Below are positions 45,978-48,900 of a stretch of 64,000 nucleotides of DNA, piece by piece. The stretch lies in assembly GCF_003790525.1 (NCBI RefSeq), contig NZ_CP033635.1; one strand, given 5' to 3'. Source of the stretch: Escherichia coli. GTDB taxonomy: Bacteria; Pseudomonadota; Gammaproteobacteria; Enterobacterales; Enterobacteriaceae. How positions within the stretch are numbered: position 1 is the first letter of the stretch; each line of letters opens with the position of its first letter. A program made the position numbers.

Positions 45978-48900
45978 TGAGTCAGTGCACACTAACACTT
46001 CGTTGTGGTCGAAGGGGATGAAAGCGGTTATCGTGGCGCAGTTTCTCTCTGCGTTTGGCGATAATGCCCTACTGTTTGCCACTCTGGCGTTACTAAAAGC
46101 GCAGTTCTATCCGGAGTGGAGCCAGCCCATCCTGCAAATGGTGTTTGTAGGTGCTTACATTCTTTTTGCGCCGTTTGTCGGGCAGGTGGCGGATAGCTTC
46201 GCCAAAGGCCGGGTGATGATGTTTGCCAACGGCCTGAAGCTGCTGGGCGCAGCCAGTATCTGCTTTGGTATCAATCCGTTTCTCGGCTATACGCTGGTGG
46301 GTGTTGGTGCTGCAGCCTATTCACCGGCGAAATACGGTATTCTCGGCGAATTAACCACGGGTAGTAAGTTAGTAAAAGCTAACGGTTTAATGGAAGCGTC
46401 TACCATAGCGGCGATTTTGCTCGGTTCCGTAGCCGGTGGTGTGCTGGCTGACTGGCATGTCCTGGTCGCCCTGGCCGCATGCGCACTGGCCTACGGTGGT
46501 GCGGTCGTTGCCAATATCTACATTCCCAAACTGGCGGCGGCGCGTCCGGGGCAGTCCTGGAATCTCATCAACATGACCCGCAGTTTCCTGAATGCCTGCA
46601 CCTCGCTATGGCGCAATGGTGAAACGCGTTTTTCGCTGGTGGGCACCAGTTTATTCTGGGGAGCAGGTGTCACGCTGCGTTTCCTGTTGGTGCTGTGGGT
46701 ACCGGTGGCGCTGGGCATTACCGATAACGCTACGCCGACCTATCTCAACGCGATGGTAGCGATTGGTATCGTGGTTGGCGCAGGTGCGGCAGCGAAGCTG
46801 GTTACGCTGGAAACCGTGTCACGCTGTATGCCAGCCGGGATTTTGATTGGCGTGGTGGTACTGATTTTCTCCCTGCAACACGAGCTGTTGCCAGCCTATG
46901 CCTTGTTGATGCTGATTGGCGTGCTGGGGGGCTTTTTTGTAGTACCGCTCAATGCGTTGCTACAGGAGCGGGGTAAAAAAAGCGTCGGGGCGGGGAATGC
47001 GATTGCAGTACAAAACCTTGGCGAAAACAGCGCCATGTTGTTGATGCTGGGCATTTACTCGCTGGCGGTAATGGTAGGCATCCCGGTCGTGCCCATTGGC
47101 ATTGGCTTCGGTGCGCTGTTTGCGCTGGCAATAACGGCGCTGTGGATCTGGCAGCGCCGTCATTAAGCTTTCACCAGATGGCATATTCCGCCATCTGGTG
47201 AACGTCACATTCCCGAAGGGTGCATACCTTTCGGATACTTCACGCTGTATGAGAATGGCAGACTCACGTTCTCTTTACCTGACAGTTTCAGCGTCCAGGA
47301 CAGTTCACCCGTTTTCGCATCAAACTGCGCCTGACCATACTGCATTTTTTCCACCGTAATATCACTATTAGCACTGACTGGGATCTGGTCGAGCAGAGTG
47401 ATATCCACCGCGTCGCCGTAGCTGTTCTTTACATTAAGGGTGTAACTGAAGTTGCGCACCGCGCTGTCATTAAAGATAGATAACGCATTCTCTTTTTTGA
47501 GTACGGCTTTACGTTGAATAATCAGCTTGGGATCGCGGTTAAGCTGAATATCCAGCGACTTGCCATCTTCCGGCGGCTGCAAATAGCCCACGCCGGTACG
47601 ATTGTTACCAAAGAAGATCTGACTTTCGCCGGGGATTAAATTTAACTGTTCCCACTCTTTAATTTGCACCTGGAGATAAGCGTCATTACTGATCTTCGGA
47701 ATAGCAAAGAAGCGATATTCACCGCTGACCGATTCCTCCTTAATGACCACCGTGCGCGCGGTGTTGTCGCTGTCGATTTGCCACGGCAGCGAAAGCGCAT
47801 AGCGAACATTTTGCGCGGTGAAACTTTCTGGTCGCGCCGAAGCTGGTGCTGCCTGTGCGGCATACTTGCGCCCGGCTGGTCGCTCCCTTGATTTTTGCAT
47901 CTCTGCCTCCAGGGATTTCTGCAATTCTGATGCATCCTGGTCAGACGAATATTCCGAACGCTGTTTCATCACGGGTGTTGCTGAAAGCGAGCCGCTTACA
48001 CCACCATACTCAGTCACATCCACATACAGAGGTTCCAGGTGTGGCAGCGTGAGATGAGTATCAGGTTCACTGGTCGAGAGCACGAGATTAACGTTTTTCC
48101 ATGGCAACCCCGTATACTGGCGAATATTAGCCTTGTAAACCAGACGCAGCGGTTGGTTTATGCCCGTGGCGTGAATATCATAGATCGGCGTCCATGTAGC
48201 ATCAGGAGTTATATAATGCACCACCGCTTTCGCAGTGACGGCTTTTGGGACATATACCTTAGCGATGATAACCTGCGGATCATCGGATGCCTCTGAATCA
48301 CCGTTATTCATACTCTCGCGTTGCTCCAACTTTTCAATTCCAAGCTGGTTATCAGCAAGTTTCTGCGTCAACTCATTGTCAGCCCGTAATAACTCACCAT
48401 TTTTCTCTTTCACCATTTGCAGATACTTGCCAACTTCGGCGGCACTTTTATTGGTTAATGTGCTATTTGCCTCTAATACCTTAATTTGAGCCGCGATATT
48501 GTTTTTCTCGGCGGTCAGTTTTGCCTGTTCCACCTTTACTGCTTTTAACTGTTGCTGAGTATCTGACGGCAGCGCATTCGGCTGTGTTTCCATTAGCGCG
48601 ATACGTGAGGAAAGCACCGTCACTCCGTTATCGATAGAAATGGCGATGCTGTCGTCGGTTACCGAATTGGCGATATTAGTGAAAATAATTTCGCTTTCAC
48701 CTGCCGGTAAGTTGAGTGTCTCTTCACCTTGTAGGCTGGCACCATGCAGATAAACAGTGACGTCTTTGAGTGTTAGCGCTTGAGTTAACTGCGCCCCCCA
48801 GGCGGAGGACAGGCACCCGGTAAGCAACATGGCGAGGGGAATAGGTTTGAAAATCAACATGGTTATCCTTAACAATGGGCACAGACATTGAAACGCGCGC

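What the first reader, a model, noticed from the sequence alone, without database searches (positions are those of the whole stretch)
47172..48875. Extra 556-aa lipoprotein gene between lplT and tas, not part of the K-12 gene order as I recall it
lplT and tas are neighbours in the K-12 map from memory, but here a 1.67-kb minus-strand ORF sits between them, bracketed by a perfect 11-bp-stem hairpin on the lplT side. The product has a lipobox signal peptide, a central coiled-coil and a beta-rich C-terminal half. It may belong to a DUF4139-like family, but I cannot verify that.
Basis: partly seen in the sequence, partly recalled or inferred. Interest (0 to 1): 0.55.

Follow-up and report, generated by a model that had tools for sequence, protein, structure and literature searches.

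The report
Relic MuiA-family envelope gene in E. coli
Between lplT and tas this strain keeps an intact gene for an exported protein of the poorly understood MuiA/DUF4139 family; related bacteria carry it at the same spot, about 99% of E. coli have deleted it, and it is already annotated, so it is an ordinary though tidy case of gene loss.

Summary
A minus-strand gene lies between lplT and tas, which in K-12 are 31 bp apart. The best-supported CDS is 47205-48860 (551 aa, ATG with an AAGGA ribosome-binding site), not the 556-aa TTG ORF. The hairpin on the lplT side is a perfect 13-bp stem.

The product matches Pfam DUF4140 + DUF4139 and NCBIfam TIGR02231 "mucoidy inhibitor MuiA family" (215.6 bits, cutoff 112.6). 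RefSeq already annotates it that way.

Only 51 of 5,426 complete E. coli genomes carry it, and 5,369 share one uniform empty junction. The same tas-X-lplT order occurs in E. fergusonii, E. whittamii, other Escherichia lineages, Pseudocitrobacter and Superficieibacter. There are no mobile-element marks, and dN/dS is 0.09-0.19. It is therefore an ancestral gene lost from most E. coli, not an insertion.

The predicted structure has beta-sandwich domains, a long helical hairpin and a disordered linker. No catalytic fold or solved relative was found. The lipobox is real in Escherichia but absent in orthologues from other genera.

Function is inferred only: an exported, non-enzymatic envelope protein, possibly modulating envelope stress as reported for P. 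aeruginosa MuiA. Interest is low.

The parts
47205..48860 (-). CDS of the MuiA-family (DUF4140 + DUF4139) protein, 551 aa plus stop
   Evidence: ORF. The ATG at 48860 with an SD site matches PGAP's 551-aa annotation in other carriers. TIGR02231 scores 215.6 bits against a cutoff of 112.6. dN/dS is 0.09-0.19.
48813..48860 (-). Signal peptide MLIFKPIPLAMLLTGC, with lipobox LLTGC (codons 48813-48827, Cys16). An alternative SPase I-type site, AWG|AQ, lies 6 residues further on.
   Evidence: Sequence. The Cys is present in most Escherichia orthologues but is replaced in Escherichia sp. E13S3, Pseudocitrobacter, P0044 and P0053. The A-W-G/S/A|AQ motif is kept throughout.
48474..48761 (-). DUF4140 N-terminal domain (aa 34-129); a beta-sandwich spans aa 23-89 in the model
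   Evidence: Pfam PF13600, E = 4.4e-13. AF2 model.
48303..48563 (-). Long antiparallel helical hairpin (helices aa 100-131 and 140-186)
47805..48074 (-). Poorly conserved, low-confidence linker (aa 263-352); the most divergent part among E. coli alleles
   Evidence: pLDDT 40-56. SNP density is 6.5-8.5% here against 1-3% in the flanks. The alignment is gapped in this stretch.
47229..48221 (-). DUF4139 region (aa 214-544); the C-terminal beta-domains aa 353-543 are the most conserved part
   Evidence: Pfam PF13598, E = 4.9e-43. Family-invariant residues W223, Y227, W254, N479, P494 and W522. C-terminal model pLDDT 85.
47170..47202 (.). 13-bp perfect hairpin between the convergent stops of lplT and the MuiA-family gene; no U-tract on either strand
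   Evidence: Conserved with compensatory changes in E. fergusonii and Pseudocitrobacter. Not listed as a canonical terminator by the scan.
48989..49011 (-). tas intrinsic terminator (10-bp stem followed by TCTCTTTTCT), which separates tas from the MuiA-family gene
   Evidence: The stem is conserved with compensatory changes across genera.
48861..48988 (-). 128-nt 5' region with SD AAGGA (48866-48870) and two blocks conserved across genera: GCAATAGACT (48917-48926) and TTTTCAGAAT (48965-48974). No promoter assigned.
   Evidence: Alignment, coordinates. No sigma-70 consensus on the minus strand.

Best explanation
Positions 47205-48860 (minus strand) encode an intact 551-aa member of the MuiA / TIGR02231 (DUF4140 + DUF4139) family.

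It is an ancestral resident of the tas-lplT interval in Escherichia and neighbouring Enterobacteriaceae. A single old deletion collapsed the interval to 31 bp, and that allele is now found in about 99% of E. coli. The strain in this window belongs to one of a few lineages that still keep the gene.

The gene is monocistronic. The tas terminator lies upstream of it, and a conserved 13-bp hairpin shared with the convergent lplT lies downstream.

The protein is exported by an N-terminal signal peptide. In Escherichia a lipobox (LLTGC, Leu at +2) predicts lipid anchoring to the outer membrane. It is built from beta-sandwich domains, a long helical hairpin and a flexible linker, with no recognisable catalytic domain.

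Shown here: gene structure, family membership, distribution, synteny and purifying selection.

Inferred, at roughly 25% confidence: it works as a non-enzymatic binding or scaffold protein in the periplasm that dampens envelope-stress signalling and its outputs (exopolysaccharide, motility). This rests on analogy with P. aeruginosa MuiA, which is driven by the ECF sigma factor SbrI under cell-wall stress and suppresses alginate production.
For: **Family**
- Pfam DUF4140 and DUF4139.
- TIGR02231 scores 215.6 bits against a cutoff of 112.6, aligned end to end.
- RefSeq names it the same way.
- The family is very large: 7,810 clusters at 50% identity.

**Ancestral position**
- The same mutH-ygdQ-ygdR-tas-X-lplT-aas order is seen in E. 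fergusonii, Pseudocitrobacter corydidari, E. whittamii and locus L009.
- X also follows tas in L010, where ygdQ is not called and the contig ends after X.
- In Superficieibacter electus, ORFs of matching sizes and strands flank the X match.

**Loss rather than gain**
- 5,369 of 5,426 genomes share one uniform junction.
- No repeats, IS elements or integrase flank the gene.
- The only fixed carrier versus non-carrier differences in the flanking genes lie in the last two codons of tas. At both sites the carriers share the E. whittamii state.
- E. coli alleles are closer to each other (94.7-96.7%) than to other Escherichia species (about 92%).

**Selection**
- dN/dS is 0.09-0.19.

**Export signal**
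-.

**Fold**
- AF2 pLDDT 85.

**MuiA biology**
- Review PMC10418997.
Against: - No experiment or expression data bear on function.
- E. coli has no alginate pathway or SbrIR system, and no promoter could be assigned.
- Identity to P. aeruginosa MuiA itself was not measured. Relatives outside the tas-linked enterobacterial group are at most 35% identical.
- The review notes that MuiA's role as an alginate inhibitor may need re-evaluation.
- The lipobox Cys is missing outside Escherichia.
- Loss from 99% of E. coli, and IS disruption in 3 of 51 carriers, show the gene is dispensable.
- Synonymous divergence is uneven. It is higher than the flanks within E. coli but lower than the flanks between E. 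coli and E. whittamii. Some inter-lineage recombination therefore cannot be excluded.
Confidence: 0.75

Rival explanations
1. The gene is a horizontally acquired islet, inserted between lplT and tas in a minority of E. coli. This is the literal reading of 'extra gene'.
For: - Present in only 51 of 5,426 genomes.
- GC is 48.7%, slightly below its neighbours at 50-56%.
Against: - The same position and orientation are found in several Escherichia species, Pseudocitrobacter and Superficieibacter, with divergence broadly tracking the flanking genes.
- There are no direct repeats, IS elements, integrase or tRNA at the borders.
- It is never found on plasmids.
- The empty site is one uniform allele carrying derived bases at the tas stop codon.
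Confidence: 0.04
2. The E. coli ancestor had already lost the gene. The few carriers regained it by homologous recombination through the lplT and tas flanks, from another Escherichia lineage.
For: - Within E. coli the gene's dS (0.11-0.15) exceeds that of most flanking genes.
- Its dS to E. whittamii (0.25-0.28) is lower than that of the adjacent genes lplT and tas (0.35-0.47) and of aas and mutH.
- Carriers fall into at least three allele groups in different backgrounds.
Against: - E. coli alleles cluster together at 94.7-96.7% and are about 92% identical to every other sampled Escherichia allele.
- Flanks are ordinary E. coli sequence up to the junction, with no donor-like tract.
- The elevated divergence is concentrated in the unconstrained linker.
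Confidence: 0.13
3. The gene is a functionless relic on its way to loss in the lineages that still carry it.
For: - Lost from 99% of E. coli.
- IS3 or ISApl1 insertions occur in 3 of 51 carriers.
- dN/dS is several-fold higher than in the neighbouring genes.
Against: - The reading frame is intact in the window and in all four other E. coli alleles examined.
- dN/dS of 0.09-0.19 indicates continuing purifying selection.
- Family-invariant residues are retained.
- The SD site, both hairpins and the upstream blocks are conserved across genera.
Confidence: 0.08

Closest known systems
MuiA (mucoidy inhibitor A; PA1494 from my own recollection) of Pseudomonas aeruginosa, the namesake of NCBIfam TIGR02231
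   Same: - Full-length match to the family model, above the curated cutoff.
- Same DUF4140 + DUF4139 architecture.
- N-terminal export signal.
- About 550 aa.
   Different: - Direct identity was not measured here.
- The enterobacterial tas-linked subgroup is at most 35% identical to any relative outside it.
- MuiA is driven by the ECF sigma factor SbrI and affects alginate production and swarming (PMC10418997). E. coli lacks that sigma factor and alginate, and no promoter was identified here.
- The Escherichia protein has a lipobox. Whether MuiA has one was not checked.
Orthologues at the tas-lplT locus in E. fergusonii, E. whittamii, cryptic Escherichia lineages, Pseudocitrobacter and Superficieibacter
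   Same: - Same position, orientation, length and domain order.
- The downstream hairpin and upstream blocks are conserved in the loci aligned: E. fergusonii, E. whittamii and Pseudocitrobacter.
   Different: - 47-92% amino-acid identity.
- The non-Escherichia orthologues lack the lipobox Cys and keep only the SPase I-type site.
Periplasmic adaptor / prefoldin-type alpha-hairpins and non-catalytic beta-sandwich modules (GH accessory domains, mu-homology domain, PIG-T, ribophorin I)
   Different: - No sequence similarity.
- Whole-chain TM-scores are about 0.12-0.16.
- These are generic folds and give no evidence of homology or shared function.

Membership tests
NCBIfam TIGR02231, mucoidy inhibitor MuiA family | Whole-protein score above the curated cutoff, with end-to-end alignment to the model | tested here: met
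   215.6 bits against a cutoff of 112.6. Residues 30-544 align to profile positions 3-521 of 524.
NCBIfam TIGR02231, mucoidy inhibitor MuiA family | Pfam DUF4140 at the N-terminus followed by DUF4139 | tested here: met
   PF13600 E = 4.4e-13 and PF13598 E = 4.9e-43.
NCBIfam TIGR02231, mucoidy inhibitor MuiA family | Residues invariant across 105 diverse family members | tested here: met
   W223, Y227, W254, N479, P494 and W522 are all present in the window protein.
NCBIfam TIGR02231, mucoidy inhibitor MuiA family | MuiA function: suppression of exopolysaccharide overproduction, and induction by an envelope-stress ECF sigma factor | not testable with these tools
   Known only from the P. aeruginosa literature (PMC10418997). 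No promoter could be assigned upstream.
Bacterial lipoproteins (SPase II substrates) | Lipobox [LVI][ASTVI][GAS]C after a short hydrophobic region, with a basic residue in the n-region | tested here: met
   MLIFKPIPLAMLLTGC has K5, then LLTGC with Cys16; the +2 residue is Leu. Pattern matching was by eye; no predictor was run.
Bacterial lipoproteins (SPase II substrates) | Lipobox Cys conserved among orthologues | tested here: inconclusive
   The Cys is kept in the E. coli, E. whittamii and E. fergusonii sequences and in most of the other Escherichia sequences aligned. It is replaced by Ser in Escherichia sp. E13S3 and by Val, Ala, Gly or Thr in Pseudocitrobacter, P0044 and P0053. The AWG/S/A|AQ site is always kept.
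Bacterial lipoproteins (SPase II substrates) | Actual lipid modification and membrane anchoring | not testable with these tools
   Requires labelling or fractionation experiments.
Horizontally acquired genomic islet | Mobility marks at the borders (direct repeats, IS, integrase, tRNA) and an empty site in outgroups | tested here: not met
   No such features were found. The outgroups carry the gene at the same site.
Canonical intrinsic terminator (for the 47170-47202 hairpin) | G+C-rich stem followed by a U-tract | tested here: not met
   The stem is stable at -24.4 kcal/mol, but no T-run follows on either strand and the scan does not list it. It may still act as a transcript-end or stability element for the convergent genes.

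The most novel reading that the evidence does not exclude
The Escherichia protein is an outer-membrane-anchored MuiA-type modulator of envelope-stress signalling (sigma-E, Rcs or Cpx). Its near-fixed deletion in E. coli was adaptive. On this reading the 1% of strains that keep it differ in capsule or colanic-acid production, motility or biofilm formation. They would also give a genetically tractable entry point to a very large family (over 7,800 sequence clusters) that has no solved structure and no known mechanism.
Probability: 0.1. Interest if true: 0.45.

Novelty: already known. Interest (0 to 1): 0.2.

Why it matters
For this window, little: the gene is already annotated in RefSeq under its family name, and it represents ordinary gene-content variation.

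It has two modest uses:
- It is a clean example of an "accessory" E. coli gene that is really an ancestral gene removed by one old deletion. This is a caution against reading absence from K-12 as insertion.
- The MuiA/DUF4139 family is very large and has no solved structure or mechanism. Natural carrier and non-carrier E. coli strains would make a convenient system for studying it.

Tried and rejected
- **Anti-phage defence.** The PADLOC models gave no hit.
- **Solved relatives by sequence.** A profile search of PDB sequences returned only coiled-coil noise, best E = 0.03.
- **Foldseek against the PDB.** One hit at E <= 0.001, with TM about 0.12.
- **Promoter.** The scan found no sigma-70 site on the coding strand. 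By-eye comparison with sigma-E and RcsB-box consensus sequences (recalled from memory) was unconvincing and was dropped.
- **Primary MuiA papers.** McGuffie et al. 2016 and Withers et al. 2014 are not held in the library. Only a review could be cited. Full-text searches for DUF4139 and PA1494 gave nothing relevant.
- **Genome-contig scan.** It returned only five loci because of its pattern-based sensitivity, so the taxonomic survey is incomplete.
- **Carrier-specific flank haplotype.** No linked haplotype exists beyond the last two codons of tas.
- **Phylogroup or ST of carriers.** Could not be determined with these tools.

Full report
**1. Is it there?**

Yes. A minus-strand ORF runs from 48875 to the stop at 47205-47207. 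It lies between lplT (45973-47166, plus strand) and tas (49018-50058, minus strand).

The mechanical ORF starts at a TTG (556 aa). The ATG at 48860 is the better start:
- It is preceded by AAGGA at 48866-48870.
- It gives 551 aa, the CDS that PGAP annotates in other carrier genomes.
- 551 aa is also the length of most orthologues.

In K-12 the stop codons of lplT and tas are 31 bp apart.

The hairpin on the lplT side is real and stronger than reported. It has 13 perfect pairs (47170-47182 / 47190-47202) and a 7-nt loop. Folding energy is -24.4 kcal/mol, z = -6.7, and none of 200 shuffles folds as well. It has no U-tract and is not scored as a canonical terminator. It is conserved in E. fergusonii and Pseudocitrobacter with compensating substitutions in both arms.

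On the other side, a canonical tas terminator (48989-49011) separates tas from the gene. The gene is therefore a monocistronic unit with 128 nt of upstream sequence.

**2. What is it?**

- Pfam finds DUF4140 (E = 4.4e-13) followed by DUF4139 (E = 4.9e-43).
- NCBIfam TIGR02231, "mucoidy inhibitor MuiA family protein", matches end to end at 215.6 bits against a curated cutoff of 112.6.
- RefSeq already names the gene "DUF4139 domain-containing protein" or "mucoidy inhibitor MuiA family protein".
- The family is very large. There are 7,810 clusters at 50% identity with E <= 0.001, and 1,723 with E <= 1e-30.
- No member has a solved structure detectable by sequence.

**3. Distribution and direction of change**

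The segment occurs in 51 of 5,426 complete E. coli genomes, always on the chromosome at this locus.

- Twenty-nine carriers are >= 99.9% identical to the window. They also share a 100% identical 4.2-kb flank that no non-carrier has, so they are one clone.
- The other 22 carry alleles 94.7-95.8% identical to the window, in at least two further allele groups.
- Three copies are interrupted by IS3-family elements or ISApl1.
- Conversely, 5,369 genomes share the same K-12-type junction at >= 95% identity. The empty site is thus a single allele.

The same mutH-ygdQ-ygdR-tas-X-lplT-aas arrangement is found in several relatives:

| Organism or locus | Amino-acid identity to the window protein |
|---|---|
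| E. whittamii | 92% |
| E. fergusonii | 76% |
| Pseudocitrobacter corydidari | 71% |
| Unnamed enterobacterial contig (L009) | 65% |

- Pseudocitrobacter vendiensis also encodes a relative (71% identical), but its gene context was not examined.
- The tas-X adjacency persists in a 48% relative, L010, where ygdQ is not called and the contig ends after X.
- In Superficieibacter electus (47%), ORFs of matching sizes and strands flank the X match.
- A 51% relative, L011, sits beside other genes: an alpha-amylase follows it and a cut, unidentified ORF precedes it.

Other points bear on the direction of change:
- Nothing at the borders suggests mobility: no repeats, IS elements, integrase or tRNA.
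- GC content is 48.7%, against 50-56% for the neighbouring genes.
- Among four carriers and four non-carriers, the only fixed differences in the flanking genes are in the tas stop codon (TGA in carriers, TAA in non-carriers) and the third base of the last sense codon.
- At both sites the carriers share the E. whittamii state, so the deletion allele is the derived one.
- E. coli alleles are more similar to each other (94.7-96.7%) than to E. whittamii or two other Escherichia species representatives (about 92%).
- Flank SNP density is ordinary right up to the junction.

The most economical reading is an ancestral gene, one old deletion that has spread through almost all E. coli, and retention in a few lineages.

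One residual oddity remains:
- Within E. coli, synonymous divergence of the gene (0.11-0.15) is higher than in most flanking genes.
- Between E. coli and E. whittamii it is lower (0.25-0.28, against 0.35-0.47 for the adjacent lplT and tas).
- I therefore leave about 13% for re-acquisition by homologous recombination.

**4. Is it functional?**

- The frame is intact in the window and in every other allele examined.
- dN/dS is 0.09-0.19. That indicates purifying selection, weaker than in the neighbouring genes at 0.01-0.08.
- Excess divergence is concentrated in the linker at 47805-48074.
- The residues invariant across 105 diverse family members are all present.

**5. Anatomy and likely mechanism**

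*Signal peptide.* The N-terminus, MLIFKPIPLAMLLTGC|LSSAWG|AQ, fits a lipobox. It has K5, then LLTGC with Cys16, and Leu at +2, which by the standard +2 rule would route it to the outer membrane. It also carries an SPase I-type site six residues later.

The Cys is kept in most Escherichia orthologues. It is absent from Escherichia sp. E13S3, Pseudocitrobacter and the more distant orthologues, which all keep the A-W-G/S/A|AQ site. Export to the periplasm is therefore the conserved feature. Lipid anchoring is a plausible Escherichia-specific addition and is untested.

*Fold.* The AlphaFold2 model has mean pLDDT 85 and pTM 0.71. It shows:
- a beta-sandwich at residues 23-89;
- a long antiparallel helical hairpin (100-131 and 140-186);
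- a second beta unit (196-262);
- a low-confidence linker (263-352);
- C-terminal beta domains (353-543).

*Structure searches.* These gave only generic matches:
- Foldseek TM-scores of about 0.12-0.16.

No catalytic fold, defence-system match or operon partner was found.

*Mechanism.* I therefore commit to a non-enzymatic, exported binding or scaffold protein of the cell envelope.

The only functional data for the family come from P. aeruginosa MuiA (review PMC10418997):
- It is transcribed by the ECF sigma factor SbrI.
- It is induced by osmotic shock, D-cycloserine and CtpA overproduction.
- It is reported to inhibit alginate production and to be tied to swarming and biofilm control. The review itself says the inhibitor role needs re-evaluation.

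By analogy, the E. coli protein may damp an envelope-stress pathway. I rate this step at about 25%.

No promoter could be assigned. Two upstream blocks, GCAATAGACT and TTTTCAGAAT, are conserved from E. coli to Pseudocitrobacter and may be regulatory.

**6. Comparison with what is known, and verdict**

The protein meets every sequence-level criterion for the TIGR02231/MuiA family. The functional criteria cannot be tested here. It is already catalogued in RefSeq, so it is not new.

The implied "extra" or inserted status should be turned round: K-12 and 99% of E. coli are the deletion state.

Interest is low (0.2). The value lies in a clear example of relic retention, and in a possible E. coli handle on a very large family of unknown mechanism.

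Noticed in passing
window 2000-32000: A block of about 30 kb at 32-41% GC lowers the whole-window GC to 44.5%. It encodes full-length type III secretion components: SctC (5325-7028), SctV (8171-10231), SctN (10236-11555), SctU (15506-16627) and the regulator YgeH (23351-24727, minus strand). This looks like a largely intact ETT2 island, which from my own knowledge is mostly deleted in K-12. It would be a second ancestral feature kept by this lineage.
   Followed up: partly
window 38404-39750: An ORF matching an IS4-family transposase (NF033592, E = 8.4e-91), lying between the low-GC island and the lysA/galR region.
   Followed up: no
window 48917-48926 and 48965-48974 (minus strand): Two 10-nt blocks upstream of the MuiA-family gene, GCAATAGACT and TTTTCAGAAT, are conserved from E. 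coli to Pseudocitrobacter although the surrounding sequence diverges. They are possible promoter or regulator sites. No sigma-70 consensus was found.
   Followed up: partly
hits H75, H76 (strains PT62, LP5-1) and H78 (strain VE-T9): In three of the 51 carriers the gene is split by an IS3-family element or by ISApl1. Loss is still continuing in lineages that kept the gene.
   Followed up: no
window 49018-49021 (tas stop codon and last sense codon): All four carriers examined have TGA as the tas stop codon and CCG as the last codon. All four non-carriers have TAA and CCA. These are the only fixed carrier versus non-carrier differences in lplT or tas, and the carriers share the E. whittamii state.
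   Followed up: yes
gene X compared with its flanks, window 43821-51993 and loci L005-L007: Synonymous divergence of the gene within E. coli (0.11-0.15) is higher than in most flanking genes. Between E. coli and E. whittamii it is lower (0.25-0.28, against 0.35-0.47 for the adjacent lplT and tas). This is unexplained; possible causes are old balanced alleles or inter-lineage recombination.
   Followed up: partly
locus L007 (strain 2017-02-2CC), mutH; corresponds to window 51421-51993: mutH in this carrier is unusually divergent from the other E. coli examined (dS 0.19-0.22; 11-12 SNPs per 200 bp). This suggests an imported recombination tract unrelated to the finding.
   Followed up: no
protein P0056: A distant family member (30% identity over 44% of the query) also carries CarboxypepD_reg-type domains (PF13715, PF13620; positions not given). 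The DUF4140/DUF4139 module therefore also occurs fused to other beta-sandwich domains.
   Followed up: no
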